A stretch of DNA of 64,000 nt from contig CAMAPP010000001.1 of assembly GCA_945860095.1 (NCBI GenBank), forward strand, positions 3,741 to 67,740, in the 5' to 3' direction. The stretch is from Rhizobium sp. Q54 (lineage in GTDB: Bacteria; Pseudomonadota; Alphaproteobacteria; CADEGL01). The position numbers and the translations under genes are program-made. Below, piece after piece: positions 3,219 to 46,569 of the stretch. The stretch's first letter is position 1; each line of letters starts with the position of its first letter. Under the pieces are notes generated by a model that saw only the letters and a program-made list of their open reading frames with translations, ran no database searches and was not told the DNA's origin.

Positions 3219-3226
3219 GCATCGAC

Positions 3227-4483: not shown

Positions 4484-4508
4484 AACAGCGCAAGTCCGGC
4501 AATAAACA

Positions 4509-10858: not shown

Positions 10859-10886
10859 TCCAGCCCCAGCGGAGAAGGAAACCCTC

Positions 10887-11914: not shown

Positions 11915-12190
11915 ATGGCAATGACGGCGCCAACCTTACCCAGCACCGGCCCGATCGCCCCCCGCCTCGGCGGCGAGTTGCCGGCGGGCGCGGACGGCGC
12001 GCCCACTGCGCCGTGGGCGCTGCCGGCGGACGTGCTTGCCTTCAGCCATGACCGCGCGGCCCTGTCATGGCTTCATGCGGCGCGCGGTCCGTTCCGGAGC
12101 GCGCTGCATGAAGCCTATACCTGTCCGAGCGTGCCGGAGAATATTATCGAAATTAATACCCATGGTGATGTCGGATTAATCCATGACTGA
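11915..12190 (+). pseudogene. Truncated 5' remnant of a DegT-like aminotransferase gene (paralogue of 12998..14077)
   Basis: The product ...LAFSHDRAALSWLHAARGPFRSALHEAYTCPSVPE... aligns with ...LYFSHGRAALRWIVGARGPFAGALVCAYTWPTVPD... of the intact gene. The remnant has high GC and ends exactly at the start of the low-GC acetyltransferase gene. Confidence 0.45.
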
Positions 12191-12893
12191 CTATTTTGTT
12201 GTCGATAAAGACGTTGAAAATCTTCTGCCTCAAGATACGCTGGCCTTCGATGGGCGCGTGCGGATTGGCAGCCGCGCCAAAATATCGGTGGGCACTCGGA
12301 TCGAGCCTCCAGTCTTAGTCGCATCGGGCGCGCGCATTTTAGACGGAGTTTCGATCGGCAAGTATTCTTACGTCGGTCGCAATACCATCGTGACCCGCGC
12401 TGACATTGGGTGCTTCTGCAGCATCGCACATGATTGCCAAATTAATTATTTCCGCGGACACCCGATGGATTGGTTAAGTACTCATACATTTCAGTATGAT
12501 CGCGATAATTTTGCTTTTTGGAGCGGTTATTCCGGTTTTACAAAGCAGCATTTTGATGGCGATACCACTCAAGCAAAGGTTGTGATTGGCGCGGATGTTT
12601 GGCTCGGAGCTGGCGTGTATATATTCGGAGGCGTCACGATTGGTTCGGGTGCGATCATTGGTGCGCGCGCAATGGTTCAGCGCGACATACCTGCCTATGG
12701 CGTCGCGGTCGGGGCACCCGCCAAGGTCAAGAACTACAGGTTCGATCAAAAATTAATCGAAAAATTGCTCGCCATCGAATGGTGGACGCTTGATGAGTCA
12801 TTGCTGCGCGACTTGCCGTTTTACGACGTAAATCGCTGTCTGGAGTTGCTGGACGAGCGGACGTTAAATTCCAAGTCATCCCCTGGAATTTAG
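12183..12893 (+). CDS. Hexapeptide-repeat (left-handed beta-helix) acetyltransferase, Vat/CatB-like
   Basis: Imperfect hexapeptide repeats are present (IGADVWLGAGVYIFGGVTIGSGAIIGARAMV). The N-terminal 60 bp sampled is about 40% GC. Confidence 0.8.
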   Translation: MTDYFVVDKDVENLLPQDTLAFDGRVRIGSRAKISVGTRIEPPVLVASGARILDGVSIGKYSYVGRNTIVTRADIGCFCSIAHDCQINYFRGHPMDWLSTHTFQYDRDNFAFWSGYSGFTKQHFDGDTTQAKVVIGADVWLGAGVYIFGGVTIGSGAIIGARAMVQRDIPAYGVAVGAPAKVKNYRFDQKLIEKLLAIEWWTLDESLLRDLPFYDVNRCLELLDERTLNSKSSPGI

Positions 12894-12997
12894 TAGGAAG
12901 CACGTACCGGCGATGTTTAGAGACATGCCCCGCTCGGATCTCTGCGTGACGGAGGATATTTTCCGCCGCCCAATCCGTCTCCCGAACAGCGCGGCGC

Positions 12998-14077
12998 TTG
13001 ATGGCTGATTCTATGGATCGGACTGGCATCGAGGTCTCCTCCGCACCAGTTGGCGGGCATCGCCGCTTTGGCGGGACGATCCCTGTTGGCGCCGATGCCC
13101 TTCTCGCGACAGCCGCGCGGCTTGATCCGACATTACTCTATTTTTCGCATGGGCGTGCCGCGCTCCGTTGGATCGTCGGAGCGCGAGGACCATTCGCCGG
13201 TGCCTTGGTTTGCGCCTACACATGGCCGACAGTGCCCGATTTGCTCACTTCGCTTGGCCTCGAAGTGCGGACGTTTGACGTCGGTGATCCCGATCCGACA
13301 CGCCTCATTCCAGCCGGCAATACCCGTTGGCTGGTACTGGTGCCTGCGCTGTTCGGCGTCGAACCGTGGCTCGACTTGGGAGCATTGGCCCGCGCGCTGG
13401 GTTCTCGCGCCATGGTGGTGCTCGACGCCGCGCAGACGGCATTTGCGGCGATCGATCATGCCCCGCCTCCAGGCGGTGGCGTGTTTTCGTGCCTGCACAA
13501 ATGCACGGCGTTGGGTGATGGAGCCTTGTTAGCACTCGATCCGCCCCCGCGTTCAGATGAGCGACAGGCTCTCGAGCAAAGTCCGATGGCCATCGAATCG
13601 AGCAAAACAAGGCTTAAGGCGCGTATAGCCTTTGCGCGAGGTAACGAAGAGGGCGAGATTCAAGCGCTTGAACTGATAAGAGAAGCCGAGGCACTTTGGC
13701 CGTTAAACTTTTGCCGGATGACGGATGAATCCAAAAGCCTTTTGGCTTACCTTGATCGATCCGCGCACGGTACACGACGCCGCGCCAATGGTGCGCGGCT
13801 AACGAAGGCGCTTAACGGTCGCCTGCCATTTGCTTGGACGGGCGAGGGCGTGCCTTTCTGTCAGACAATACTCGTTGCCGCGCGTGCAACCCTGCTTCCA
13901 CGGTTACACGCGCGTCGAGTCTTTGCCTCCCCATTGTGGCCTGATGCCCACTGCGATGCCGGTCGTCACCCTCGGGCTGCGCGTTTTGCGCGCGAACTTA
14001 TAGCGCTGCCGTTAGACCAACGTTATGAGCCCGCCGACATGGACGCTCTTGCCGATCTCGTGCTCGATGCGTTGTGA
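12998..14077 (+). CDS. DegT/DnrJ/EryC1/StrS-family (sugar aminotransferase-like) protein, divergent
   Basis: The order of conserved blocks matches the DegT fold: FSHGRAAL, TWPTVPD, VVLDAAQT and GVFSCLHKCTALGDGA (candidate PLP lysine). Confidence 0.55.
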   Translation: MMADSMDRTGIEVSSAPVGGHRRFGGTIPVGADALLATAARLDPTLLYFSHGRAALRWIVGARGPFAGALVCAYTWPTVPDLLTSLGLEVRTFDVGDPDPTRLIPAGNTRWLVLVPALFGVEPWLDLGALARALGSRAMVVLDAAQTAFAAIDHAPPPGGGVFSCLHKCTALGDGALLALDPPPRSDERQALEQSPMAIESSKTRLKARIAFARGNEEGEIQALELIREAEALWPLNFCRMTDESKSLLAYLDRSAHGTRRRANGARLTKALNGRLPFAWTGEGVPFCQTILVAARATLLPRLHARRVFASPLWPDAHCDAGRHPRAARFARELIALPLDQRYEPADMDALADLVLDAL

Positions 14078-14088
14078 GTGGTGATGCG

Positions 14089-15030
14089 TCAATCTGGCGT
14101 GTGGCGGCGTCGCAGCATCAACTTAAGTCCTTGCTCAATTTCTATGGAAGCCTGGAAATCGAGCGCGCGCCGAGCATATTCGGTGTTGAGTGCAAAACGC
14201 AGCTGGGGTGGCCGATCCGTGGTGGTTTCACGCACAATGACGCGGCCGCGACCGGCAACGCAAACGCAGGCTTGCGCGATTTCCATTAAAGTTTGCGGTG
14301 CGCCGCTTGCCACATTGAAAGTCGCCCAGGCGCGTCGGTCGAGTGTCAATTTAACGGCGCGGGCTACGTCCGCGGCGTGCACAAGGTCGATGCAATCTTT
14401 GGCTGGTGGATCGATTAGAATTGTTTCGTCTTTAGCTGCTATTTCGAGCCATGTTGGTATGAGTTTTCCGGAAGCCATACCGGTTCCGTAGATCGATGAT
14501 GGCCGCAGTACGGCTAGATTCAAACCTTCCTGTCGCAGAGGCCACAAAGCGGCTTCCGCAAGTAGTTTGCTATGGCCGTATGCGCCGCCGGTTGCACCTT
14601 GCCAGGCCAGTTCGTCGTTCTCTGCTGGCCGACCACCCTCAGCAGCGGCATACACCGTTGCCCCGGATATAAAAATCATTGGTATGCCTCGAGCCAGCGC
14701 CCAGCCTCCGAGCGCCCAGGTGGCACGAATATTGGCATCGAACAGTGTTCGACAATCCATCGTCACGCCTGGCGCCCGGACCAAGGCCCCTGCATGGACC
14801 ACGGCTGTGGCGGCGGGGAACAACTCATCGAGCGCATCCGGCTCGCGCCATTCCTGGAGATCCCATATCTCCCAACTTGAGGCTTCACCTTGATCTGCCG
14901 GAACCTTGCGAGAAGCAGCCAGAACTTCCACGCGATCGCGTGCAAGCAAGGCCAGGATATGGCGCCCGAGAACGCCGGAGGCGCCGGTAAGGGCGATGCG
15001 GTGGGGCGGGCTGAGCGTGCCATGAGACAT
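14089..15030 (-). CDS. NAD-dependent epimerase/dehydratase family protein
   Basis: Has the N-terminal Rossmann motif IALTGASGVLG. It is the only reverse-strand gene in the glycan locus. Confidence 0.7.
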   Translation of the reverse strand: MSHGTLSPPHRIALTGASGVLGRHILALLARDRVEVLAASRKVPADQGEASSWEIWDLQEWREPDALDELFPAATAVVHAGALVRAPGVTMDCRTLFDANIRATWALGGWALARGIPMIFISGATVYAAAEGGRPAENDELAWQGATGGAYGHSKLLAEAALWPLRQEGLNLAVLRPSSIYGTGMASGKLIPTWLEIAAKDETILIDPPAKDCIDLVHAADVARAVKLTLDRRAWATFNVASGAPQTLMEIAQACVCVAGRGRVIVRETTTDRPPQLRFALNTEYARRALDFQASIEIEQGLKLMLRRRHTPD

Positions 15031-15080
15031 GGCATGATGGTGACGTGTGCGGCTGCTGTTATCAACGGATATTGGCTCTG
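15031..15080. promoter_or_regulatory. Short divergent intergenic region between the epimerase (-) and NeuC copy 1 (+); likely divergent promoters
   Basis: Inferred only from the divergent gene arrangement. Confidence 0.2.
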
Positions 15081-16244
15081 ATGCTTCGGGTATGCCTTGT
15101 CACTGGTTCGCGCGCCGAATATGGCCTGTTGCGCCCCGTTATTGCGGCCTTGAAGGCCGAGCAAGGTATGATCGTAAGTCTGGTCGTAACGGCGATGCAC
15201 TTGTCGCCCGAGTTTGGACTTAGCATTGGCGAGATCGAAGCGGACGGTCACCGCATCGATGCACGCGTCGAGATGCTGCTTTCCTCGGATTCCGGCGTTG
15301 GCGTCGCCAAGTCGATGGGGCTTGGCACGATCGGCCTTGCCGACGTTTTTGCCCGGATTGCACCGGACATCATCATTTTATTCGGCGACCGTTTTGAGAC
15401 GCTCGCAGCGGCACAGTCCGCGCTCGTCATGCGGATTCCGGTTGCGCACGTGTCCGGAGGCCATGTCACACATGGCGCATTCGACGATGCGATTCGACAT
15501 AGCATCACGAAAATGTCGCATATCCATTTCGCGACCACTGAAGAGGCGGGTTTGCGCATCCGGCAACTTGGTGAAGACACAGCCAACATTCATGTTGTCG
15601 GTGACCCGGGCATCGATGCAATTCGACTCACCAAGCGCCTGGCAAAGCCTGCCGTTGAGGAGCGGCTTGGCTTTCGTCTGCTTAGCCGAAATGTCCTCGT
15701 GACGTTCCATCCTGTCACGCTCGATCCGATTCCTTCAGTGCAGCAATTTGAAAATCTTCTAACTGCGCTGGATTCACTTGGGCCGAATATGGGCATCATT
15801 CTCACCAAGCCAAATGCCGATGTCGAAGGCCGCTCGCTCGGGGCCTTGGCGGAGGATTTTGCGGCCGGGCGCCCCAATGCCATCTGTCGCAGTTCACTCG
15901 GACACCTTCTTTATCTCAGCACCATGGCCGAGGTGGATGTCGTCATTGGGAATTCTTCAAGCGGTCTGCTGGAGGCTCCGTCGCTTGAAAAGCCGGCGGT
16001 CAATATCGGCATGCGGCAATCGGGCCGACCTAGGGCCGCTTCGGTAATCGACTGTCCAGCGGATGCGCGAGCCATCGGGGACGCAATACAGCGCGCCTTT
16101 AGGCTCGACTGCCGTGGCGTGGTAAATCCTTACGGTGACGGCCATGCGGCAGAGCGCATCCTAGCGGTATTGAAGATGACGCGCGATCCGCAGGCGCTGC
16201 TCTACAAACGCTTCCGCGACCTTCCTCCTACAAACTCCAGGTGA
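15081..16244 (+). CDS. UDP/GDP-N-acetylglucosamine 2-epimerase (hydrolysing), NeuC/LegG family, copy 1
   Basis: VTGSRAEYGLLRPV, HVSGGHVTHGAFDDAIRHSITKMSHIHF and GNSSSGLLEAPS are typical of NeuC. An alternative GTG start lies at 15045. Confidence 0.8.
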   Translation: MLRVCLVTGSRAEYGLLRPVIAALKAEQGMIVSLVVTAMHLSPEFGLSIGEIEADGHRIDARVEMLLSSDSGVGVAKSMGLGTIGLADVFARIAPDIIILFGDRFETLAAAQSALVMRIPVAHVSGGHVTHGAFDDAIRHSITKMSHIHFATTEEAGLRIRQLGEDTANIHVVGDPGIDAIRLTKRLAKPAVEERLGFRLLSRNVLVTFHPVTLDPIPSVQQFENLLTALDSLGPNMGIILTKPNADVEGRSLGALAEDFAAGRPNAICRSSLGHLLYLSTMAEVDVVIGNSSSGLLEAPSLEKPAVNIGMRQSGRPRAASVIDCPADARAIGDAIQRAFRLDCRGVVNPYGDGHAAERILAVLKMTRDPQALLYKRFRDLPPTNSR

Positions 16245-17080
16245 CGGTTGTGAGTAAAAACGCCGTCTACGCTCCATTGTTTGACCTGGCTGGCCGCCGC
16301 GCCATCATCACGGGTGCCTGTGGGACGCTCGGGCCTGCGTTCGCGGCGGCGCTTGCCGAAATGGGCGCCTCGGTCGTGGTTTCCGACATTGATGCGTCCA
16401 ATGCCGAGGCGCTGGCCGCCGAACTCGCACAGGCCCACGGTCGCCGCACGCTTGGGCTGTCCTGTGACGTTAGCAACGCGACCGCCGTCGATGAAATGAT
16501 CGAACGCGCAGTTCAAGCTTTCGGCGGCATCGACATCCTGGTCAACAATGCCCAAGCGGCCAACCCTAATCCCAGCCGCTATTTCGATCCGCTGGAACAT
16601 TATTCGTTCGAGGAGTGGCGGCGTCGGATGTCTGTCGACCTCGACGGCATGTTCCTGGTGGCTCAAGGCACTGCTCGGCGCATGGCGAAGCAAGATACCG
16701 GTGGCGCGATCGTGCAAATCGCTTCGATTTATGGCGCGCTCGGTCCCGACCAACGTATCTACGAGGGGGCGGGGTTTCGCGGCGCTCCGATCAATCTGCC
16801 GCCGGTCTATTCGGCCGCCAAGGGTGGAGTCATTGGGCTGACGCGTTGGCTTGCGACGTGGGGGGCCGACAAAGGCATCCGTGTTAATGCGCTGGTGCCT
16901 GGCGGCGTCGAAAGCGGTCAGAATGACGAGTTCGTGAAAAAATATAGCCAGCGTGTTCCGCTTGGCCGCATGGCGCGCCGCGAAGAGGTAGCGTCCTCGT
17001 TGTTGTGGCTTGTTTCGGATGCCGCAAGCTATGTTACAGGGCAGACGATCTTCGTCGATGGCGGATTGAGCGCGTGGTGA
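16241..17080 (+). CDS. SDR family oxidoreductase (PtmA-like)
   Basis: ITGACGTLG glycine-rich motif, NNAQ and the YSAAK catalytic motif are present. The GTG start overlaps the upstream stop. Confidence 0.8.
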   Translation: MTVVSKNAVYAPLFDLAGRRAIITGACGTLGPAFAAALAEMGASVVVSDIDASNAEALAAELAQAHGRRTLGLSCDVSNATAVDEMIERAVQAFGGIDILVNNAQAANPNPSRYFDPLEHYSFEEWRRRMSVDLDGMFLVAQGTARRMAKQDTGGAIVQIASIYGALGPDQRIYEGAGFRGAPINLPPVYSAAKGGVIGLTRWLATWGADKGIRVNALVPGGVESGQNDEFVKKYSQRVPLGRMARREEVASSLLWLVSDAASYVTGQTIFVDGGLSAW

Positions 17081-18558
17081 CTCTGGCAGAGGCTAACGGC
17101 GGTATTCCGCTCACGTTGTACGGCGTGAGTCCGGAGGAGCTCGCCGAGGACGTCTATTACCGTCGAGACTTCTTCGAATTACATCGTGGCTCCGGTTTCA
17201 TCGATTGCATCGAGGGGCCCTCGTTTCATGCCGGCGCGGTCGTGCGCGCCATCGAGGGGACCGATCTGGAAGACCTAGAAACACCATGGGGCTATGGCGG
17301 TCCGATCGCGACCAGCCATGAACAGATGCGACAAGGCATGTGGCTGTGGCGTCAGCGCCAGCGTGAGGCCGGCCGAGTGGCTGAATTCGTGCGCCTGCAC
17401 CCATTCCTCAATCCACTGGCCGTCCACGATTACTATGCTGACATCAAGTTTGATCGTGTAACGATTGCCGTCGATCTATCGCTGCCACGCGAACAACGCC
17501 GTCGCGTCTATTCCGAAGGCACCAAGAACCGACTTCGCCGCGCGGCACGAAGCATGACAGTTGTGAGACTCGGAATCGAACACGCCGAAGATTTTCGGCG
17601 CTGCTACGAAACCGGACTAGACCGCAATAACGCGCTCTCTGCCTATTATTTTGGCGATGACTATTATGAGAAAATTCTCGCGTCGCCTTGGGCGACGTGC
17701 CTTGGCGGGCAATTGGATGGCGAGATTGTATCGATTGCGTGTTTCCTCCATACGGGAATATTTTGCCACTACCATCTGTCCGGTTCGACGTCGGACGGAC
17801 GCGCTAAGTTTGCACACTATCTTCTACTTGATCATGCATTTGATTATTTTTCGGAAAAAGGCGCGCGCCTCATGCATCTCGGCGGCGGCCGGACGGAACG
17901 GCCAGACGATGCGCTGCTGGAGTTCAAGAAGAAGTTTTCCCGTTGGCGCCTAGCGTTCTACACGGCCGGTGCCATCTATGACCCCGAAGCCTATGCCCAG
18001 CTTTCGACTGGGGACACGCGGCGCTTCTTGAACTATCGGTTTAGCCTCACCCCTCGTGATGAGGTCGGCGATGTGGTCTTGCGCAAAGCAACGATTCAAG
18101 ACCTCACCTCCTATTTTCAATTGAAATGCGATGTCTCAAATATTTTTTGGTCTGGACATGTGTCACCGCCGGACTGGCGTCATTTAAGTGCCTGGTATAC
18201 CGCTTTATTCAACGAAAATATGAAGCGCGAAGTCTTTATCGCTGAGATGCATTCACGGGTCATCGGCTACGCGTATCTCGACGACAAGAATGATCATCTC
18301 GAGTCGACATTGGGGGTCGCGGCATCGGAGTCAAACCGCGCACGCGGCCGCCATCTACTTATGGAGATGGTCAAGATATTGCGAGAGCGAAACGAAACAC
18401 GTTCGGTGGAAGCGTGGATTTTTAAGGAGAACATCGCGTCCGTGAAGGCACACGAGGCAGCGGGTTTTGTTTTGGATTCGAGCCGACCGACAAGATCGTC
18501 CAATATGCCTTTCGTTAAAAACGGTAATATTCAAAGTTGCTGGGTGTGGAGGGTTTAG
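17074..18558 (+). CDS. FemAB-like (Acetyltransf_6/aminoacyl-transferase fold) domain fused to a C-terminal GNAT acetyltransferase domain
   Basis: The N-terminal roughly 340 aa resemble FemAB/peptidoglycan-bridge-type transferases. The C-terminal part is a classic GNAT (VIGYAYLD ... RARGRHLLMEMV ... AAGF). The start is taken as a GTG overlapping the SDR stop; track entry 17005 is probably over-extended. Confidence 0.55.
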   Translation: MVTLAEANGGIPLTLYGVSPEELAEDVYYRRDFFELHRGSGFIDCIEGPSFHAGAVVRAIEGTDLEDLETPWGYGGPIATSHEQMRQGMWLWRQRQREAGRVAEFVRLHPFLNPLAVHDYYADIKFDRVTIAVDLSLPREQRRRVYSEGTKNRLRRAARSMTVVRLGIEHAEDFRRCYETGLDRNNALSAYYFGDDYYEKILASPWATCLGGQLDGEIVSIACFLHTGIFCHYHLSGSTSDGRAKFAHYLLLDHAFDYFSEKGARLMHLGGGRTERPDDALLEFKKKFSRWRLAFYTAGAIYDPEAYAQLSTGDTRRFLNYRFSLTPRDEVGDVVLRKATIQDLTSYFQLKCDVSNIFWSGHVSPPDWRHLSAWYTALFNENMKREVFIAEMHSRVIGYAYLDDKNDHLESTLGVAASESNRARGRHLLMEMVKILRERNETRSVEAWIFKENIASVKAHEAAGFVLDSSRPTRSSNMPFVKNGNIQSCWVWRV

Positions 18559-18559
18559 C

Positions 18560-19732
18560 GTGGGATTGTCTCGCAAGAAAGTATGCGTAGTCACCGGCAC
18601 ACGCGCCGAGTTTGGTCTGCTTCGTCCGGTCATGGCGCTTCTCAAGAAGGATTCGGCTTTTGACCTTCAGGTCATCGCCTCGGCCATGCATCTGGTGCCG
18701 GAATTCGGATTGACGTACCGCGAAATCGAAGCGGCGGGATTTGATATCGATGCAAAGGTAGAGATGCTGATCGCCGGCGACACGCCTGCGGCCGCGGCAA
18801 AGTCGATGGGAATCGGCACCATGGGCTTCGCTGATGCATTTTCTCGACTTGAACCCGATATGATCATGCTATTGGGCGATCGATTCGAGGCGCTCGCCGC
18901 CGCTTCGACCGCGACGGTCATGGGCATTCCCATCATCCATTTGGTGGGGGGCGACGTTACCGAAGGCGCCTTCGACGATGCCATTCGGCACGCGATTACA
19001 AAGATGTCCCATCTGCACTTTGTGGCCTCGAAGGAATCAGGTGGCCGAGTCCGGCAAATGGGTGAGGAGCCGTTTCGTGTGCATGTCGTGGGCGATCCTG
19101 GACTCGATGGTCTGCGGCAGATGACATTGATTGGTCGGAAAGCCCTGGAACGAGATATCGGATTTCGGTTTCGTCACAAGAATCTCGTTGTCACCTTTCA
19201 CCCAGCGACGCTCGATCGTATTCCGTCGACCAAGCAGTTCGCCACCGTGTTGGATGCGCTCGACAGCCTTGGTCCGGATTTTGGCCTTATCTTCACTAAA
19301 CCGAACGCCGATCCGCAAGGGCGGGCGCTCATCGTCATGCTCGATGCGTTTGTTCGGGATCACCCGAATTCGGCTGCTTTCGTGTCTTTAGGGCAGCGCC
19401 GCTATCTAAGCGTCATGGCGCAATGTGACGCAGTCGTCGGCAATTCGTCGTCAGGGCTCTTAGAGGCGCCGTCGTTGGGCATACCCACGATCAACATAGG
19501 AAGCCGCCAGAATGGCCGTCTGAAGGCGAAGACGGTTTATGATTGTTCTGTGGACAAGGCGGGGATAGTTAGGGCGCTTCGCAAAGCCCTGAGCGGGCGT
19601 ATTGGAAAGGTGGATAATCCACATGGAGATGGCCATACGGCGCCTCGAATCATACGCATACTGAAAAAGGTACGCGATCCAAAGAGCCTATTGCGCAAAT
19701 CCTTCCATAACCTCAATCGATCCCTTGTCTGA
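18560..19732 (+). CDS. UDP/GDP-N-acetylglucosamine 2-epimerase (hydrolysing), NeuC/LegG family, copy 2
   Basis: Shares roughly 50-55% identity with copy 1 (VTGTRAEFGLLRPV, HLVGGDVTEGAFDDAIRHAITKMSHLHF, GNSSSGLLEAPS). GTG start. Confidence 0.8.
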   Translation: MGLSRKKVCVVTGTRAEFGLLRPVMALLKKDSAFDLQVIASAMHLVPEFGLTYREIEAAGFDIDAKVEMLIAGDTPAAAAKSMGIGTMGFADAFSRLEPDMIMLLGDRFEALAAASTATVMGIPIIHLVGGDVTEGAFDDAIRHAITKMSHLHFVASKESGGRVRQMGEEPFRVHVVGDPGLDGLRQMTLIGRKALERDIGFRFRHKNLVVTFHPATLDRIPSTKQFATVLDALDSLGPDFGLIFTKPNADPQGRALIVMLDAFVRDHPNSAAFVSLGQRRYLSVMAQCDAVVGNSSSGLLEAPSLGIPTINIGSRQNGRLKAKTVYDCSVDKAGIVRALRKALSGRIGKVDNPHGDGHTAPRIIRILKKVRDPKSLLRKSFHNLNRSLV

Positions 19733-20804
19733 CCGGGTTTACATCATCGCGGAGGCGGGGGTGAACCATAACGGTTCGCTCGATATGGCGCTTCGGTTGA
19801 TAGATTGCGCCGCTGAGGCTGCCGCGGATGCGGTGAAATTTCAGACGTTCAAGGCCGAAAAGGTGGTGACCGCCGCCGCACCTAGGGCGGCGTATCAAAT
19901 TGCGAATGTGGGCGAGGATGGCTCGCAGATCGAATTGATTCGGAATTTGCAACTTGATGAATCGGATTTTTATAAACTCGCCGCTCATGCAGCCGCGTGC
20001 AATATCGAATTCATGTCCACGCCCTTCGACCTCGAATCATTGCAATTTCTCGTGCACGAAATTGGCATCCGCCGGCTTAAAATTCCCTCTGGCGAAATCA
20101 CCAACATCTTCTTATTGCTAGGTGCGGCGCGATCGAAGCTTCCACTAATTGTCTCGACGGGCATGTGCACGCTCGACGACATCGAAGCGGCCTTGGACGT
20201 GCTTGCCTTTGGCCTCGTCCAGCCCAATGTCGCGCCTTCCGCAAATCGTATTTGGGGCGCTTCCACCAGCGCGGCCGGCCGTGCCGCCTTGATGGAAAAG
20301 GTGACGTTGCTCCACTGCACTACGGAGTATCCAAGTCCGGTGGAAGATACAAATTTGCGCGCAATGCAGACCATGCGCGATAAATTCAACCTTCCGGTTG
20401 GTTATTCTGACCACACCAGTGGCATCGCAATTCCTGTTGCCGCGGCAGCTCTGGGCGCAACTGTGATCGAAAAGCATTTCACTCTTGATCGCTCACTGCC
20501 GGGCCCGGACCACCCCGCCTCTCTGGAACCTACTGAATTGAAGTCGATGGTTCAATTCGTGCGCAAATCGGCTGCGGCATTAGGGCGGTCTGAAAAATTA
20601 CCAGCGCCTTCCGAACTTAAAAACATTCCGATTGCACGGCGCAGCCTAGTCGCCGCGCGCTCGATTCGGCACGGGGAAACGCTTGACCTGTCGATGCTCG
20701 ACGCAAAGCGCCCTGGTACGGGCCTGTCGCCAATGCGCATATTTGACATCGTCGGGACCAAGGCTAAGCGTGATTACGCTCCAGATGAGGCGATTGAATC
20801 GTGA
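19725..20804 (+). CDS. N-acetylneuraminate synthase family (NeuB/LegI/PseI-type nonulosonic acid synthase)
   Basis: The N-terminus YIIAEAGVNHNGS, the conserved core and a C-terminal SAF-like domain are present. Confidence 0.85.
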   Translation: MSDRVYIIAEAGVNHNGSLDMALRLIDCAAEAAADAVKFQTFKAEKVVTAAAPRAAYQIANVGEDGSQIELIRNLQLDESDFYKLAAHAAACNIEFMSTPFDLESLQFLVHEIGIRRLKIPSGEITNIFLLLGAARSKLPLIVSTGMCTLDDIEAALDVLAFGLVQPNVAPSANRIWGASTSAAGRAALMEKVTLLHCTTEYPSPVEDTNLRAMQTMRDKFNLPVGYSDHTSGIAIPVAAAALGATVIEKHFTLDRSLPGPDHPASLEPTELKSMVQFVRKSAAALGRSEKLPAPSELKNIPIARRSLVAARSIRHGETLDLSMLDAKRPGTGLSPMRIFDIVGTKAKRDYAPDEAIES

Positions 20805-21451
20805 GCAGGCCGGTCATTATCGTCGGCGGCGGAGGCCACGCCCACGTGATTATCGACGCGCTTACCCGCGGTGGCATCTCAGTGATCGGAATTTGCGATC
20901 CGGCCCTGTCGAAGGGTTCGTTAGGGCCGCTAGGCGTTTTGGTTCTTGGCAACGATAGTGCCCTGTCCGGCTATCCACCATCGGATGTCGATCTTGTGAA
21001 TGGCGTGGGATCGACCTCTTCAACGGATTCCCATAGACAGGTGTTCGAAGTCTTCAGCCGACGCGGCTACCGCTTTGTGTCGGTCGTGCATCCGAGTGCG
21101 ATCATTGCACGTGACGTAAGAGTAGAAGAGGGCGGTCAATTGATGGCGGGGGTTGTGGTCCAGGCCGGGACGGTCATTGGCCGCAATACGATTGTCAATA
21201 CTGGCTCCTGCATCGACCACAATTGTCGGCTCGGTGACCATGTACACGTAGCGCCGGGCGTGACGCTGTCCGGGGGCGTGACTGTTGGGTCGAACACGCA
21301 CATAGGAGTTGGTGCTTCGATTATTCAATCGGTCATCATCGGTGAACACTGTCTAATTGGAGCGGGCACCGTCGTGCTAACTAATGTCGATGATGGCTGT
21401 CGTATCGTAACGCCCCCGAGTCGAACGCTCATCGAGCGACCGGCAAAGTAA
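20801..21451 (+). CDS. NeuD/PglD-family sugar N/O-acyltransferase (hexapeptide)
   Basis: A Rossmann-like N-terminus (IIVGGGGHA) precedes left-handed beta-helix repeats. It overlaps the upstream stop. Confidence 0.8.
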   Translation: MSRPVIIVGGGGHAHVIIDALTRGGISVIGICDPALSKGSLGPLGVLVLGNDSALSGYPPSDVDLVNGVGSTSSTDSHRQVFEVFSRRGYRFVSVVHPSAIIARDVRVEEGGQLMAGVVVQAGTVIGRNTIVNTGSCIDHNCRLGDHVHVAPGVTLSGGVTVGSNTHIGVGASIIQSVIIGEHCLIGAGTVVLTNVDDGCRIVTPPSRTLIERPAK

Positions 21452-21473
21452 CATAGGCCTGAATTCTCCTCAT

Positions 21474-22400
21474 ATGGCCCGTACACTTGTTGTCGGATAC
21501 GGCTCGATCGGCGAACGCCATGGTCGTCTCCTTGCGGAGCTTGGACACGAAGTGGCGGTAGTCAGCCGCCGCGCCATTTCGCATTCATCGAAGTTTAGCG
21601 CAGTGGCCGACGCAATGCGGGCAATCAAACCTGAATACGTCGTAATTGCGAACGAGACTTCCGCGCATCGCTCGACCGTTGCTGCCCTCGTAGCCTGCAA
21701 TTTTTCCGGAATAATCCTTATCGAAAAGCCGCTCTTCGAGTGCACTAGCAGTAGGGATGCAACCGACCGAGCAAACACTTATGTGGGTTATGCTCTTCGT
21801 TTTCACCCATTGATGGTTCAGTTGCGAGAATGGGTACGGACGAGAAGAGTAGTCTCGGCGTCAATTCATGTAGGGCAGAATTTGTCGAGGTGGCGCCCCG
21901 GCCGGGATCTCCGTGATTCCTATTCAGCGCAACCAGCGCTTGGGGGCGGCGTGTTGCGTGACCTAAGTCACGAGTTGGACTATGCGATCTGGTTGTTCGG
22001 CGCATGGCGACGCGTTGCAGCGATCGGCGGAGCAAGCGGTGTACTTGGTATCGAAGCGGATGATCATTGGAGCATCGTGGCGGAGTTCGATCGCTGTCCA
22101 CAGGTAAGCATGACGCTTAGCTATCTCGACGAGCCACCGCGGCGTCAGATCGTGGTCAATACGGACTCTGGGACAGCGTCCGTCGACTTGCTGCGTGGAT
22201 CATTCCAGACCAGTGAGCAACCGGAGCCTGATCGCATTCGCGTTGACCGTGACGAACTCTATCGCCAGCAGCACAAAGTGATCCTATCCGGCTGTCCCGG
22301 GCAGGCATGCACGTATGGCGAAGGCCTTGCTGTCGTCTTATTCATCGAAGCGATCGAAAGTGCTGCCCGAACAGGATTCTGGATCGCTGGTTATCGATAA
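21474..22400 (+). CDS. Gfo/Idh/MocA family oxidoreductase (PtmF-like)
   Basis: The N-terminal Rossmann segment (LVVGYGSIGERH) and the EKP motif are present. Confidence 0.7.
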   Translation: MARTLVVGYGSIGERHGRLLAELGHEVAVVSRRAISHSSKFSAVADAMRAIKPEYVVIANETSAHRSTVAALVACNFSGIILIEKPLFECTSSRDATDRANTYVGYALRFHPLMVQLREWVRTRRVVSASIHVGQNLSRWRPGRDLRDSYSAQPALGGGVLRDLSHELDYAIWLFGAWRRVAAIGGASGVLGIEADDHWSIVAEFDRCPQVSMTLSYLDEPPRRQIVVNTDSGTASVDLLRGSFQTSEQPEPDRIRVDRDELYRQQHKVILSGCPGQACTYGEGLAVVLFIEAIESAARTGFWIAGYR

Positions 22401-23117
22401 ATGAAGCGAATTTGCACAATCTGCGCGCGGGGGGGGTCCAAAGGTCTTCCCGGCAAGAACCTTCGGAAGCTTCTTGGAAAATCCCTCATCGCGCATTCCG
22501 TTGAGCACGCGCGCGCGACCGGCTTATTTGATGCCATCGCCGTGAGTAGCGACGACGACGACATTTTGCTGGCTGCGCGACAAGCAGACGTCGATCACCT
22601 GGTCAAACGCCCGTCCCATCTTGCCAACGATGTAGCTGCCAAGATGCCGACAATTCAGCACTGCGTGCGCGCAGTAGAAGAGAAATTAAATCAACAGTTC
22701 GATGTTATGGTCGATTTAGATGCCACTGCTCCATTGCGGCTTCCGGAGGATATCACGGGTGCCGTGGCGATGTTGGAGGCTGGCGGCTGCGACAATGTCA
22801 TTACCGGCAGTGAGGCGCACCGATCGCCGTATTTTAATCTTGTGGAGATGGGCAGAGATGGCTTCGTGAACCTGTCGAAGCCGGGTGGAGGGCTCGTTCG
22901 CCGGCAGGATTCACCCAAATGCTACGACTGCAATGCATCAATATACGTCTGGCCGCGCGCGACCTTTTTCGTGGCAGCGTTCGCCATTATGCCACGCACG
23001 AAGCTCTATGAAATGCCTCGCGGACGTTCACTCGATATCGACAACGAACTAGATTTTGAGATTGTCGAATTCCTCATGCGTCGCGCCGAGTTTGTGGACA
23101 GAGGATTGCGGAAATGA
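22401..23117 (+). CDS. Acylneuraminate cytidylyltransferase family (CMP-nonulosonic acid synthetase), copy 2
   Basis: The N-terminus reads ICTICARGGSKGLPGKNL... with the canonical length. Confidence 0.8.
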   Translation: MKRICTICARGGSKGLPGKNLRKLLGKSLIAHSVEHARATGLFDAIAVSSDDDDILLAARQADVDHLVKRPSHLANDVAAKMPTIQHCVRAVEEKLNQQFDVMVDLDATAPLRLPEDITGAVAMLEAGGCDNVITGSEAHRSPYFNLVEMGRDGFVNLSKPGGGLVRRQDSPKCYDCNASIYVWPRATFFVAAFAIMPRTKLYEMPRGRSLDIDNELDFEIVEFLMRRAEFVDRGLRK

Positions 23118-24694
23118 CGAATGCGGTTGCAGCGCCAACCAGTCGGAAGGGCCTAGCGGCATTTGTCTATGATGACATCGGCAAAATTACGGACTGGCGT
23201 GAGCGGCTCCACTGGCCGATCGCCCATGTTGATATCGCAAATATCGGACATCTCGTTCCCGCCGCGGTGATCTCGGCCGCGGCGTCTTTCTCCGATCTAT
23301 TCGAACGTCAGGTGGCGACCGTTGCCGGCCCGTTATTGGGCGGTGGGTTCATGTCGCTCTTGGAAGCGGCCTGGGTTAGCCAAGAAGCAAAACGCCTAGG
23401 CCTGGAGATCGTTGGTGGCCCCCCTGAAATGGCGTTGCTTGCACACGGCCGCGAAGACTTCGCCGTCCAGGAATATCGCGGCTTTCGGGTGATGCCAGTG
23501 CCACATTCGCGGCTTCGTCGCATGGTCCGAATGGCCATGTGGACGCCGGTTCACCGCCTCCCCCGCGCGCTGCTGACTCCGGAAGCAGTGGCGGTGACAT
23601 ACAATTCGCTGCTGGTGCAGGCAACGAAAGGCCATGCCGTCGGCTTCCATCACGCGCCAAACATGGTTGCACAATCCCGCGGTGGTCGTTCGCGGAAAAT
23701 GAATATTGATGTGGTGTCGATTGCGGACAAGGTGCTTGATCGCTTACTGCCACTCGCACCGATTCTCAACGCAATTCACCGCGACCGCCTGAGGAGGGTC
23801 TTCAATGCTCGTATCAAAACCGCATTGACACGGGTCGTAGAGGACATCGCCGCTTTGCGAGAATATAAACTTCCAAATGAAATCTGGAGCGGGACCAATG
23901 GATTTTATGCGACCCGCGTCCTTGCCAGCGAGGTTCGCCGTCGCGGCGGACGGGTTGAGGCATTCGATCACGGTGGCGTCACGGGCCTTACACAATTGGT
24001 GGGGTCAACGGCGCTGATCGAACTGTGCACCTCAAGTCGCTTTCATCTCGCCACACCGGAGTGGGCCGAGTTATTGGCGAAAACCGACGCGATCTCCATT
24101 GCCGCGCCGCTCAACAGCGTCACTCTGGCAGGTGGCGGCGGAGAGCCAACATTTCGCCAAGCGTTTCGCGACGGCACTGAACGCAAAGGTACACGACCGC
24201 GTGTCATCGTTATCGGCCATCCACATAAAGGCTTACGGCAATTTCCAATTGCGGCAATCAGCGACGCCACATATTGGGATTTCCAGATTGAACTCGTTGG
24301 CCAACTCAAACGCATGGACGTGGATTTTTTCTGCAAGCCGCATCCAGAAGGTGAGTTCCGAGGGCGTCGCAATCCACTGGAGGAACTCGCGCCGACATCT
24401 TATTCTCGCTTCGAAGAACATCTCGACGACGCCGATGTGTTTCTGTTCGATGCGCCGACATCCACCACATTTCTGGAGAGCCTCTGCACGCGGCGCCGAG
24501 TCGTGTTAATCGACCGGTTGTATGGTTTTAATCCTGTTGTGGAGCCTCACATACGCGAGCGTTGTCGAATTGTTAAAGGGCATTTCGATGCTCGAAATCG
24601 GTTCCGGGTCGATTTTAGCGAGCTGGAGGAGGCAATCTGCGGTACCGGATCGGAACCCGATCCTTCATATTTTCGACGTCTCACTTCCGGCTAA
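23114..24694 (+). CDS. Hypothetical protein with Capsule_synth-like (KpsS/KpsC-type) C-terminal domain; candidate CMP-nonulosonic acid transferase
   Basis: FFCKPHPEGE and DADVFLFDAPTSTTFLESL resemble the HP and TAGFES motifs of KpsS/KpsC. It is translationally coupled (ATGA) to the CMP-NulO synthetase. Confidence 0.5.
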   Translation: MTNAVAAPTSRKGLAAFVYDDIGKITDWRERLHWPIAHVDIANIGHLVPAAVISAAASFSDLFERQVATVAGPLLGGGFMSLLEAAWVSQEAKRLGLEIVGGPPEMALLAHGREDFAVQEYRGFRVMPVPHSRLRRMVRMAMWTPVHRLPRALLTPEAVAVTYNSLLVQATKGHAVGFHHAPNMVAQSRGGRSRKMNIDVVSIADKVLDRLLPLAPILNAIHRDRLRRVFNARIKTALTRVVEDIAALREYKLPNEIWSGTNGFYATRVLASEVRRRGGRVEAFDHGGVTGLTQLVGSTALIELCTSSRFHLATPEWAELLAKTDAISIAAPLNSVTLAGGGGEPTFRQAFRDGTERKGTRPRVIVIGHPHKGLRQFPIAAISDATYWDFQIELVGQLKRMDVDFFCKPHPEGEFRGRRNPLEELAPTSYSRFEEHLDDADVFLFDAPTSTTFLESLCTRRRVVLIDRLYGFNPVVEPHIRERCRIVKGHFDARNRFRVDFSELEEAICGTGSEPDPSYFRRLTSG

Positions 24695-24716
24695 GATTGA
24701 TCTGAAACTTACGGTC

Positions 24717-24857
24717 ATGAGTAGGGGGGTGCCGAGTCGGGTGGACGAGCGCGGGCGGATCTGGCCGGATGCGGCCGCGCTCGAGGACGCCGTCTTGGCC
24801 GGCGCCGCCACGGCCGACCCCGGCTATTTCCGCCGTCTTTTGGCGGGCGATTCGTGA
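24717..24857 (+). pseudogene. 3' remnant of a resident homologue of the 526-aa Capsule_synth-like gene
   Basis: It encodes ...RIWPDAAALEDAVLAGAATADPGYFRRLLAGDS*, which parallels the C-terminus ...RFRVDFSELEEAICGTGSEPDPSYFRRLTSG* of 23114..24694. It is high-GC and keeps a GTGA overlap with the next gene. Confidence 0.4.
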
Positions 24858-25720: not shown

Positions 25721-25744
25721 ACCGGATAACATGATCCCAACCCG

Positions 25745-46541: not shown

Positions 46542-46569
46542 ACGCTCTTGCCCGACTGGGGCCTGTGCT

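What the first reader, a model, noticed from the sequence alone, without database searches (positions are those of the whole stretch)
11915..24857. Low-GC nonulosonic-acid gene island flanked by remnants of the genes it carries
Between about 12.19 and 24.70 kb the GC content drops sharply. A host-like stretch at 8041-8100 has 46/60 GC. Inside the island, 12181-12240 has 24/60 and 18061-18120 has 30/60. At the left edge, a 92-codon ORF (11915..12190) aligns with the N-terminal third of the intact DegT-like gene at 12998 (FSHDRAALSWLHAARGPF versus FSHGRAALRWIVGARGPF). It terminates exactly where the low-GC acetyltransferase gene starts. At the right edge, 24717..24857 encodes ...ADPGYFRRLLAGDS*, which mirrors the C-terminus ...PDPSYFRRLTSG* of the intact 526-aa gene. 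That remnant still carries the GTGA start overlap with the downstream resident gene. Both remnants are high-GC and the intact copies are lower-GC. This is the footprint of a foreign cassette (acetyltransferase, DegT-like, epimerase, NeuC, SDR, FemAB-GNAT, NeuC, NeuB, NeuD-like, Gfo, NeuA, 526-aa protein) inserted between the 5' part of a resident DegT-like gene and the 3' part of a resident 526-aa-like gene. The inferred mechanism is glycan serotype switching by cassette displacement.
Basis: seen in the sequence. Interest (0 to 1): 0.75.

Follow-up and report, generated by a model that had tools for sequence, protein, structure and literature searches.

The report
Surface-sugar gene cassette swap with scars
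A 12.6-kb lower-GC block of genes that make and probably attach a sialic-acid-like surface sugar has replaced this bacterium's own roughly 9-kb version of that block, leaving stubs of the old genes at both edges; it is a very clean but ordinary case of how bacteria swap surface-sugar types.

Summary

- **Composition.** Window 12141-24727 has GC 0.57 against 0.66 elsewhere. Its tetranucleotide distance from the host is about 10 sd above that of host windows.
- **Left scar.** 11915-12140 holds the first 75 codons of a resident DegT-like gene.
- **Right scar.** 24728-24857 holds the last ~42 codons of a resident 538-aa gene.
- **Strains without the island.** L055, L051, L054 and L021 keep both genes full length inside a high-GC cassette with a different gene order. 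Their homology to the window stops exactly at 12140 and restarts exactly at 24728.
- **Donor type.** L049 and the ERZ1305449 contig come from lower-GC organisms. They carry the island's gene order, at 86-91% nucleotide identity where DNA is held (L049), inside the same locus frame.
- **Mobile elements.** No integrase, tRNA, IS element or flanking repeat marks the junctions.

- A third stub lies inside the island at 12909-13007. It is the 3' end of a canonical DegT gene lost by a ~1.2-kb deletion.
- The same right-hand scar occurs in a second lineage with ~94% flank identity, and the flank is mosaic. The scarred cassette therefore also moves by flanking homologous recombination.
- Similar scars occur in other loci of this type.

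This is a new member of a known kind. The antigen change itself is inferred.

The parts
10887..11864 (+). Resident left flank: radical SAM/SPASM gene (325 aa), the last conserved gene before the swap
   Evidence: Pfam PF04055 and PF13186. 70-75% aa identity to the gene at the same position in L010, L011, L014, L039 and L050. The 3' end is 97.4% nt identical to L055.
11915..12140 (+). Left scar: first 75 codons of the resident DegT-like gene, high GC. The called 91-codon ORF runs on to 12190 through foreign DNA.
   Evidence: 92.9% nt identity to the full-length gene in L055, dropping to 28% after 12140. The full-length relatives P0109 (352 aa) and P0108 (341 aa) fall in the same 90% cluster. 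Gly51, invariant in the family, is Asp in the remnant.
12141..12171 (+). 31 nt of AT-rich junction sequence not assignable to the resident type or to donor-type L049
   Evidence: No match in any fetched locus except copies of the window itself. Homology to L049 starts at 12172.
12183..12893 (+). Island gene 1: hexapeptide-repeat acetyltransferase (236 aa), the lowest-GC gene at 0.51
   Evidence: Pfam PF00132. Vat/CatB-like hits in NCBIfam, all below cut-off. 90.6% nt identity to L049.
12909..13007 (+). Internal scar: last ~32 codons of a canonical DegT aminotransferase gene, left by a ~1.2-kb deletion relative to the donor type
   Evidence: The window lacks L049 864-2086. The reading frame PAMFRDMPRSDLCVTEDIFRRPIRLPNSAALDG* matches the C-terminus of the L049 DegT, at 77% aa by tblastn.
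13001..14077 (+). Island gene 2: intact DegT-like protein (358 aa), a divergent sugar aminotransferase fold
   Evidence: No Pfam or NCBIfam hit. hhalign against canonical DegT gives 82%, E 1e-5. AlphaFold pLDDT 93, Foldseek E 3e-13 to ArnB, DesV and PseC. 84% aa identity to P0048.
14089..15030 (-). Island gene 3: NAD-dependent epimerase/dehydratase (313 aa), the only minus-strand gene
   Evidence: Pfam PF01370.
15081..16244 (+). Island gene 4: NeuC-type hydrolysing 2-epimerase, copy 1
   Evidence: PF02350. TIGR03568 scores 421 bits against a cut-off of 236.
16241..17080 (+). Island gene 5: short-chain dehydrogenase
   Evidence: PF13561 and PF00106.
17074..18558 (+). Island gene 6: two-domain FemAB-like/GNAT acyltransferase (494 aa)
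   Evidence: PF13480 and PF00583. Weak FemX and PseH hits.
18560..19732 (+). Island gene 7: NeuC-type hydrolysing 2-epimerase, copy 2 (53% identical to copy 1)
   Evidence: PF02350. TIGR03568 scores 447 bits. Paralogy shown.
19725..20804 (+). Island gene 8: NeuB-type nonulosonate synthase (start codon uncertain)
   Evidence: PF03102, E 1e-89. TIGR03569 scores 454 bits, above its cut-off of 400. PseI scores 251 bits, below its cut-off.
20801..21451 (+). Island gene 9: NeuD/PglD-type sugar N-acetyltransferase
   Evidence: PF17836 and PF00132. TIGR03570 scores 205 bits against a cut-off of 161.
21474..22400 (+). Island gene 10: Gfo/Idh/MocA oxidoreductase
   Evidence: PF22725 and PF01408.
22401..23117 (+). 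Island gene 11: CMP-nonulosonate synthetase-type cytidylyltransferase
   Evidence: PF02348. PseF-like in NCBIfam but below cut-off.
23114..24694 (+). Island gene 12: 526-aa protein of a rare family with a GT-B-like fold; candidate transferase for the nonulosonic acid
24695..24727 (+). 33 nt of junction sequence after the island's last stop codon, origin unassigned
   Evidence: No match outside copies of this junction. Present at ~88% identity (29 of 33) in L052 and L053.
24728..24857 (+). Right scar: last ~42 codons of the resident 538-aa gene, high GC, ending in the GTGA overlap with the next gene
   Evidence: Ungapped homology to L021 (93.5%) and L051 (98.5%) starts exactly at 24728. The segment is 99.2% identical to the 3' end of the intact L051 gene. 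Its closest family members belong to a different clade from the island copy.
24854..25720 (+). Resident right flank: 288-aa gene of unknown function, the first conserved gene after the swap; its allele is mosaic among relatives
   Evidence: 97% aa identity to L021. Sliding identity shows it is closer to L021 (96-99% nt over 24.8-25.55 kb, 92% at 25.55-25.8 kb) than to L051 (88-94% throughout). The window then becomes ~100% identical to L051 from 26.3 kb.

Best explanation
The window is a chromosomal surface-glycan locus of about 48 kb in an uncultivated alphaproteobacterium. Its central module makes a NeuB/legionaminic-type nonulosonic acid, activates it with CMP, and probably transfers it with a dedicated GT-B-like enzyme.

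**What happened.** In this lineage the resident high-GC module was cut out. Its order was DegT-like, FemAB/GNAT, NeuC, NeuB, PglD, Gfo, cytidylyltransferase, SDR, 538-aa protein. The excised piece ran from codon 76 of its first gene to about 42 codons before the end of its last gene, roughly 9.2 kb. It was replaced by a 12.6-kb module from a lower-GC organism with a different composition: hexapeptide acetyltransferase, a deleted DegT, DegT-like, epimerase, NeuC, SDR, FemAB/GNAT, a second NeuC, NeuB, PglD, Gfo, cytidylyltransferase, 526-aa protein.

**How.** Both joins are illegitimate. There is no homology at the joins, short unassigned stretches sit at each one, and no mobile-element signature is present. 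The new module kept the operon's orientation, so it is read from the resident operon. The same right-hand junction (island end, unassigned stretch and remnant) then moved between related lineages by homologous recombination in the conserved flanks.

**Shown and inferred.**
- Shown: the replacement, its exact borders, its polarity, the donor-type architecture, and the spread of the same right-hand junction.
- Inferred: that the sugar and its linkage, and hence the surface antigen, changed; and which sugar is made.
For: - **Composition.** Sharp composition breaks at both borders.
- **Scars.** Significant remnant-versus-intact alignments.
- **Left empty site.** L055 is 97% (radical-SAM gene end) and 93% (remnant) identical to the window up to 12140, then unrelated, and carries the full 352-aa gene.
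- **Right empty site.** Homology to L051 (98.5%) and L021 (93.5%) starts exactly at 24728. Both carry a full-length 538/528-aa gene and a high-GC cassette (GC ~0.70) upstream.
- **Identity step across the border in L021.** Flank proteins are 93-97% identical to the window's. Cassette proteins are only 43-68% identical.
- **Donor type.** L049 (GC 0.55) is 86-91% nt identical to the island. The ERZ1305449 contig has the same 12-gene order plus DegT, between ABC transporter, 597-aa protein, Gfo, radical-SAM gene and a downstream gene. In tetranucleotide profile L049 groups with the island and L021 with the host.
- **Independent assemblies.** The left junction was assembled independently in contigs from five datasets (L005-L009). 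The right junction was assembled in three more contigs (L001-L003).
- **Second lineage.** The same right junction occurs in L052 and L053, whose flanks are ~94% identical. The 288-aa gene region is mosaic.
- **No mobile element.** No tRNA nearby, no integrase or transposase, no flanking repeats.
- **Pathway.** NeuB, two NeuC, NeuD/PglD and the cytidylyltransferase are identified.
- **Folds.** GT-B fold for the 526-aa protein. Aminotransferase fold for the DegT-like protein.
Against: - All comparison sequences are metagenome contigs or MAGs. No isolate genome or read-level check was possible.
- The actual donor is not in hand. L049 is only 86-91% identical, and the one long donor-type contig has no DNA available, so the donor's right end is unknown.
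- The 31-nt and 33-nt junction stretches are unexplained.
- The island lacks the canonical DegT that the closest donor type has, so the pathway could be impaired. Against that, L050 naturally lacks it too.
- No data show that the glycan or antigen differs.
- For the window/L051 pair, the direction of the later homologous exchange cannot be decided.
Confidence: 0.88

Rival explanations
1. Metagenome mis-assembly: the island and the flanks come from two organisms and were joined by the assembler.
For: The window and all its relatives are metagenome-derived. Both cassette types occur in the same study's samples (ERZ2726-2728 series).
Against: - Assemblers join at shared sequence. Here the two types share none at the joins, and there are unique 31-nt and 33-nt junction stretches.
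- The left junction was recovered in contigs from five datasets, including a Logan assembly, and the right junction in three more contigs.
- A ~94% diverged copy of the right junction exists in another MAG, GCA_945873245.1, and in another sample.
Confidence: 0.03
2. The low-GC block is native and old, and the 'remnants' come from local duplication and decay rather than from replacement.
For: Glycan loci are often lower in GC than their genomes. This is general knowledge, as in Salmonella rfb clusters.
Against: - The remnants are only 40-47% identical to the intact copies. They are 93-99% identical to the full-length genes of near-identical strains that lack the island.
- The right remnant belongs to a different clade of the family from the island copy.
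- The resident cassette in relatives has host-like GC of ~0.70.
Confidence: 0.02
3. A mobile genomic island (integrase-, transposon- or phage-borne) inserted at this site.
For: Compositional deviation and sharp borders.
Against: - All 12 island genes are glycan-pathway genes.
- There are no direct or inverted repeats at the borders.
- The only tRNA is at 57.3 kb.
- About 9.2 kb of resident DNA was removed, and the donor type sits in the same locus frame rather than on an element.
Confidence: 0.04
4. Reverse polarity: the island arrangement is ancestral, and relatives such as L051 and L021 replaced it with the high-GC cassette.
For: For the window/L051 pair, the flank mosaic does not show which strain was the recipient of the latest homologous exchange.
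Against: - The truncated pieces are in the window and the complete genes are in the relatives.
- The stubs have host-like GC and one carries a change at an invariant residue.
- A complete gene cannot be regenerated from a 42-codon stub.
Confidence: 0.03

Closest known systems
Vibrio cholerae O1-to-O139 serogroup conversion (replacement of the O-antigen cluster between conserved flanks)
   Same: A whole glycan-biosynthesis block is exchanged between conserved flanking genes of one chromosomal locus. The exchange can spread by homologous recombination or transformation (PMC1891326).
   Different: Here both original joins lie inside genes and are illegitimate, so the truncated first and last genes of the old cassette remain. 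The organisms are uncultivated Alphaproteobacteria and no serology exists.
Acinetobacter baumannii K loci KL46 versus KL5 (pseudaminic-acid module in place of the legionaminic-acid module)
   Same: Closely related capsule loci differ by exchange of the nonulosonic-acid biosynthesis module inside a conserved frame (PMC6586298).
   Different: In the window both modules are NeuB/NeuC-type with different accessory genes, and the putative transferase is exchanged with the pathway. The locus carries an ABC-transporter gene rather than the wza-wzb-wzc export module of the K locus. Scars are present.
Salmonella galactose-initiated O-antigen clusters with gene remnants at block junctions
   Same: Mosaic gene clusters, lower-GC blocks, and non-functional gene remnants that record past exchanges (PMC3715488).
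   Different: In Salmonella several junctions involve IS or H-repeat elements. None is seen here.
Legionaminic-acid pathway of Campylobacter jejuni (LegB/C/H/G/I/F with PtmA/E/F), recalled from the literature and not checked here
   Same: Both have a NeuC-type hydrolysing 2-epimerase, a NeuB-type synthase, a PglD-type N-acetyltransferase, a CMP-sugar synthetase, a Gfo-family and an SDR oxidoreductase. A CBS-nucleotidyltransferase lies in the flank.
   Different: The window has two NeuC paralogues, a FemAB/GNAT two-domain acyltransferase, a divergent DegT-like protein and an extra hexapeptide acetyltransferase. The product is unknown.

Membership tests
Nonulosonic-acid (sialic-acid-like) biosynthesis cluster | NeuB-family condensing enzyme | tested here: met
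   PF03102, E 1e-89. TIGR03569 scores 454 bits against a cut-off of 400.
Nonulosonic-acid (sialic-acid-like) biosynthesis cluster | NeuC-type hydrolysing nucleotide-sugar 2-epimerase | tested here: met
   Two copies. TIGR03568 scores 421 and 447 bits against a cut-off of 236.
Nonulosonic-acid (sialic-acid-like) biosynthesis cluster | CMP-nonulosonate synthetase | tested here: met
   PF02348 scores 68 bits against a cut-off of 22.6. It is below the PseF equivalog cut-off, so the family level is met but the subtype is open.
Pseudaminic-acid pathway specifically | PseI-type synthase above the curated threshold | tested here: not met
   TIGR03586 scores 251 bits against a cut-off of 340, while the NeuB_NnaB model passes. 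The pathway is therefore Neu/Leg-type rather than Pse-type.
Legionaminic-acid-type pathway | 4,6-dehydratase, aminotransferase and PglD-type acetyltransferase upstream of NeuC and NeuB; identity of the product | tested here: inconclusive
   PglD/NeuD-type enzyme is present. The aminotransferase role could be filled by the DegT-like protein. The dehydratase could be the epimerase-family gene at 14089-15030 or the Polysacc_synt_2 gene at 46525-48534. The product cannot be tested with these tools.
Glycan-locus cassette replacement (serotype-type switch by recombination) | Near-identical flanks with a divergent central block in related strains | tested here: met
   L051 flank is 98.5-100% nt identical and L021 flank proteins are 93-97% identical, against 43-68% for cassette proteins.
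Glycan-locus cassette replacement (serotype-type switch by recombination) | Changed glycan structure or antigen | not testable with these tools
   Needs chemistry or serology. It is inferred from the different gene content: an extra acetyltransferase, epimerase and NeuC, a divergent transferase, and no canonical DegT.
Integrative mobile genomic island | Integrase or transposase, tRNA or att site, flanking direct repeats | tested here: not met
   None found.
DegT/DnrJ/EryC1 sugar aminotransferases (for the gene at 13001-14077 and the left remnant) | Match to the family profile | tested here: not met
   No PF01041 or NCBIfam hit. A PDB profile search gives only E 0.08.
DegT/DnrJ/EryC1 sugar aminotransferases (for the gene at 13001-14077 and the left remnant) | Fold-type I sugar-aminotransferase fold with the Asp and Lys of the PLP site | tested here: met
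   Foldseek E 3e-13, probability 1.00, to ArnB, DesV, perosamine synthase and PseC. hhalign aligns the DAAQ motif and the invariant Lys. It works like the family but is a distant relative outside the curated model.
GT-B glycosyltransferases (for the 526-aa protein and the right remnant) | Two-Rossmann-domain GT-B fold | tested here: met
GT-B glycosyltransferases (for the 526-aa protein and the right remnant) | Sequence membership of a described transferase family; transferase activity with a CMP-sugar | tested here: not met
   No Pfam, NCBIfam or PDB sequence match. Some relatives carry PF27859, which is absent from the local Pfam copy. Activity cannot be tested here.

The most novel reading that the evidence does not exclude
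The 5' end of the DegT-like gene may be a preferred breakpoint for repeated, two-way exchange between two cassette types.

Four loci carry scars at or next to this gene:
- The window has a resident-type stub of 75 codons in front of an island-type cassette.
- L010 has the mirror image: an island-type stub of ~53 codons in front of a resident-type gene.
- L038 has a 189-aa in-frame chimera of the DegT-like N-terminus and the DegT C-terminus.
- L055 has stacked fragments after the DegT-like gene.

This could mean that a conserved segment acts as a recombination anchor, or that an undescribed exchange mechanism exists, rather than independent accidents filtered by selection.
Probability: 0.15. 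Interest if true: 0.6.

Novelty: new member of a known kind. Interest (0 to 1): 0.35.

Why it matters
- **A fully documented swap.** Recipient-like empty sites, a donor-type locus and base-exact breakpoints were all recovered from public metagenomes for an uncultivated alphaproteobacterium.
- **Within-species variation.** Surface-sugar type varies between strains that are otherwise ~100% identical in the flank. This matters for phage and predator recognition, and for binning and strain-resolved metagenomics.
- **Two uncharacterised protein families.** A rare GT-B-like protein has only 44 relatives in 5.8 billion proteins. A divergent DegT-like aminotransferase escapes the curated models. Both always travel with the nonulosonic-acid genes, so they are candidates for the dedicated transferase and a pathway enzyme.

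The underlying process, glycan cassette replacement, is well known.

Tried and rejected
- **Family searches on unknown proteins.** Pfam and NCBIfam gave nothing for the 526-aa, DegT-like, 288-aa and 603-aa proteins.
- **PDB sequence searches.** The 526-aa family profile found nothing meaningful. The DegT-like family reached only E 0.08.
- **Remnant as a query.** Searching with the 91-aa remnant found only itself and one partial protein. The full-length resident gene turned up later through cluster membership.
- **Border repeats.** A repeat search across 11.5-25.5 kb found no direct or inverted repeats at the borders.
- **Promoters and terminators.** The scan found no more sites than shuffled sequence.
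- **Junction stretches.** The 31-nt and 33-nt stretches match nothing else that was fetched. An 8-nt GCCGGATT shared by resident-type and donor-type sequence at the left join could mark microhomology, but the intervening 31 nt does not fit a simple microhomology join, so I make no claim.
- **Donor right end.** It could not be read because the ERZ1305449 contig has no DNA on file.
- **603-aa protein.** Profile comparison with the 526-aa family gave only 13.7% probability, so no relationship is claimed.
- **Amelioration.** Differences from L049 run 163 AT-to-GC against 123 GC-to-AT in the window. By my own normal approximation this is p of about 0.02. It is weak and has no outgroup to give direction.

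Full report
**1. The observation**

A composition profile shows GC of 0.63-0.71 on both sides and 0.54-0.62 between 12 and 25 kb. At 200-nt resolution GC falls from 0.73 (11.9-12.1 kb) to 0.50 (12.1-12.3 kb), and rises from 0.50 (24.5-24.7 kb) to 0.69 (24.7-24.9 kb). Third-codon-position GC is about 0.78-0.85 in flank genes and 0.55-0.68 in the twelve genes between.

Tetranucleotide distance to the host profile is 0.315-0.404 for all nine 3-kb windows inside the block. For 47 host windows it is 0.168 +/- 0.020, with a maximum of 0.217.

The ORF at 11915-12190 aligns with residues 23-96 of the intact gene at 12998-14077 (47% over 75 aa, E 1e-15). The ORF at 24717-24857 aligns with the last 43 residues of the 526-aa protein (40%, E 2e-8). 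Its stop overlaps the GTG of the next gene.

**2. What the genes are**

Pfam and NCBIfam give this order: hexapeptide acetyltransferase, a protein with no hit ('DegT-like'), an epimerase/dehydratase on the minus strand, NeuC, SDR, a FemAB-like/GNAT two-domain acyltransferase, a second NeuC, NeuB, a NeuD/PglD-type acetyltransferase, Gfo/Idh/MocA, a CTP_transf_3 cytidylyltransferase, and a 526-aa protein with no hit. NeuB passes the NeuB_NnaB model but not the PseI model, so the pathway is Neu/Leg-type rather than Pse-type.

- **DegT-like protein.** It is a genuine but distant sugar aminotransferase. hhalign against canonical DegT gives 82% probability, E 1e-5, with the DAAQ motif and the invariant lysine aligned. 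A confident model (pLDDT 93) matches ArnB, DesV, perosamine synthase and PseC at Foldseek E of about 1e-12.

The rest of the window is one large glycan locus. It contains a WbuX-like amidotransferase, a HisF-like gene, a second cytidylyltransferase, a CBS-nucleotidyltransferase, an ABC transporter, a radical-SAM/SPASM gene, an FkbM methyltransferase, two asparagine-synthase-like genes, a VimE-like deacetylase, WbpB/D/E-like genes, several GT4 transferases and a Polysacc_synt_2 dehydratase. It ends near 48.5 kb at purH, a glutamate dehydrogenase gene, tRNA-Gly and ftsK. It is chromosomal and holds no mobile-element genes.

**3. Relatives without the island**

The window's own proteins occur on contigs from several ENA samples and on a Logan assembly. 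All show the same architecture.

A scan of species-representative genomes with the 526-aa family profile returned 12 loci. One is L021, from MAG GCA_046153685.1. Its 288-aa, FkbM and AsnB-like proteins are 97, 96 and 93% identical to the window's. Upstream it has Gfo, cytidylyltransferase, SDR and a full-length 528-aa gene that are only 43-68% identical to the island's counterparts, at GC ~0.70. Ungapped DNA homology (93.5%) starts at window 24728.

Cluster membership of the 288-aa protein led to L051, from sample ERZ27265269. It is 98.5% identical over 24728-32218 and essentially 100% from 26.3 kb onward. Its intact 538-aa gene ends in ...VPSRVDERGRIWPDAAALEDAVLAGAATADPGYFRRLLAGDS*, with the same GTGA overlap.

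On the left, the 90% cluster of the remnant contains the full-length proteins P0108 (341 aa, same MAG as L021) and P0109 (352 aa). P0109 lies on L055, from the same sample as L051. L055 is 97.4% identical to the window in the radical-SAM gene's 3' end and 92.9% in the remnant, and unrelated (28%) after 12140. L054, the contig of P0108, continues with FemAB/GNAT, NeuC, NeuB and PglD, and its end overlaps the start of L051 at 98.3%.

The resident cassette therefore ran DegT-like, GNAT, NeuC, NeuB, PglD, Gfo, cytidylyltransferase, SDR, 538-aa protein. About 9.2 kb of it is missing from the window. The same order, with a canonical DegT in front, is conserved in L011, L014, L019, L022, L033 and L039.

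**4. The donor type**

The closest relatives of the island's 526-aa and DegT-like proteins are P0004 (89%) and P0048 (84%). Both lie on one 20-kb ENA contig whose gene list reads: ABC transporter, 597-aa protein, Gfo, radical SAM, hexapeptide acetyltransferase, DegT, DegT-like, epimerase (minus strand), NeuC, SDR, GNAT, NeuC, NeuB, PglD, Gfo, cytidylyltransferase, 526-aa protein, and one further gene. The donor type thus sits in the same locus frame.

L049 has DNA for part of this type. Its GC is 0.55. It is 90.6% identical to window 12172-12897 and 86.3% identical to 12911-14882, and its tetranucleotide profile groups with the island. L050 shows the same gene order in a high-GC organism, without DegT.

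**5. Junction anatomy**

- **Left.** Resident sequence ends ...GAGCGTGCCGGAG at 12140. Then come 31 AT-rich nucleotides matching nothing (12141-12171). Donor-type homology follows from 12172, eleven bases before the acetyltransferase ATG.
- **Right.** The island's TAA is at 24692-24694. Then come 33 unassigned nucleotides, and resident homology resumes at 24728.
- **Borders.** There are no flanking repeats.
- **Inside the island.** The window lacks L049 864-2086, which is the canonical DegT gene. It keeps the last ~32 codons of that gene at 12909-13007. This third scar was not in the finding.
- **Sign of decay.** In the left remnant the family-invariant Gly51 is Asp.

**6. Spread and mosaicism**

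L052 (MAG GCA_945873245.1) and L053 carry the island's 3' end, the 33-nt stretch and the remnant in the same arrangement. Their flanks are only ~94% identical to the window, and their island part is 97% identical.

Sliding identity shows that the window's 288-aa gene is closer to L021 than to L051. Against L021 it is 96-99% over 24.8-25.55 kb and 92% at 25.55-25.8 kb. Against L051 it is 88-94% throughout. From 26.3 kb the window and L051 are identical.

The same right-hand junction, and strains without it, are thus distributed across lineages in a way that needs homologous recombination in the flanks. Which strain of the window/L051 pair was the recipient in the latest exchange cannot be told.

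**7. Other scars**

- L010 has radical SAM, acetyltransferase, a 67-aa stub that is 67% identical to the island-type DegT-like N-terminus, and then a resident-type DegT-like gene. This is the mirror image of the window.
- L038 has a 189-aa in-frame chimera of the DegT-like N-terminus and the DegT C-terminus between NeuB and NeuC.
- L055 has stacked fragments and a low-GC insert after its DegT-like gene.
- L054 has a methyltransferase and a 530-aa gene where the window has Gfo and radical SAM.

This locus type is rearranged often.

**8. Rivals**

- **Mis-assembly** is unlikely. The left junction recurs in independent assemblies from five datasets, the right junction in three more contigs and in a diverged lineage, and the two types share no sequence at the joins.
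- **A native origin with local duplication** is contradicted by the remnants' 93-99% identity to complete genes in island-free strains, against 40-47% identity to the island copies.
- **A mobile-element insertion** lacks every hallmark.
- **Reverse polarity** is excluded for the original event, because the truncated genes are in the window.

**9. Comparison with what is known**

Replacement of glycan cassettes between conserved flanks is established biology. Examples are V. cholerae O1 to O139 (PMC1891326), exchange of nonulosonic-acid modules in Acinetobacter K loci (PMC6586298), and gene remnants at block junctions in Salmonella O-antigen clusters (PMC3715488).

The present case is a new member of that kind. 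It stands out for the completeness of the evidence and for the two uncharacterised protein families that travel with the cassette. That the surface antigen changed is inferred from gene content only.

Noticed in passing
window 12909-13007: The island has an internal scar: the last ~32 codons of a canonical DegT aminotransferase gene. The rest of that gene (~1.2 kb) is present in donor-type L049 and deleted here.
   Followed up: yes
L010 (= L029) 3552-3755: A 67-aa ORF is an N-terminal stub of an island-type DegT-like gene. It lies between a hexapeptide acetyltransferase and a resident-type DegT-like gene, the mirror image of the window's left scar in another alphaproteobacterial MAG.
   Followed up: partly
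L038 1169-1738: A 189-aa in-frame chimera of a DegT-like N-terminus and a canonical DegT C-terminus sits between NeuB and NeuC. It is another rearrangement scar in a related locus.
   Followed up: partly
L055 1270-2330: After the full-length resident DegT-like gene come several pieces: a 25-codon GNAT start fragment, a DegT-like C-terminal fragment, and a low-GC (0.46-0.50) 253-aa ORF with a weak TylF-like hit. They are followed by a GNAT gene only 75% nt identical to that of L054. This looks like a further swap in the island-free strain.
   Followed up: partly
L054 951-3463 versus window 9851-11864: Between the 603-aa gene and the DegT-like gene, the MAG that supplies L021 and L054 has a methyltransferase and a 530-aa unknown gene of lower GC. 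The window has Gfo plus radical SAM there. This is a second variable module in the locus.
   Followed up: no
window 24854-26300: The 288-aa gene region is mosaic. It is closer to L021 (96-99% nt over 24.8-25.55 kb, 92% at 25.55-25.8 kb) than to L051 (88-94% throughout). The window then becomes identical to L051 from about 26.3 kb, which marks a homologous-recombination tract end next to the cassette.
   Followed up: yes
window 23114-24694 and relatives P0003-P0046: The 526-aa family is very rare, with 44 hits in 5.8 billion proteins, mostly in Alphaproteobacteria MAGs. It has an invariant KPHPEG motif and a GT-B-like fold. Some members carry PF27859, which is not in the local Pfam copy.
   Followed up: partly
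window 845-6271: The upstream flank holds a CDP-alcohol phosphatidyltransferase, a HisF-like gene, a WbuX-type N-acetyl-sugar amidotransferase, a second PseF-like cytidylyltransferase and a CBS-nucleotidyltransferase (PtmE-like). This suggests resident tailoring, for example acetamidino formation, and activation steps that now serve the imported cassette.
   Followed up: no
window 8053-9864: A 603-aa protein with no family hit is conserved next to the ABC transporter in this locus type. A C-terminal stretch weakly resembles the 526-aa family (hhalign 13.7%).
   Followed up: partly
L011 11694-13820 and L014 11656-13821: Some related loci have a ~710-aa fusion protein (pyruvate-kinase-like, PUA and ATP-sulfurylase domains) inserted between the 540-aa gene and the 288-aa homologue. 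The window lacks it.
   Followed up: no
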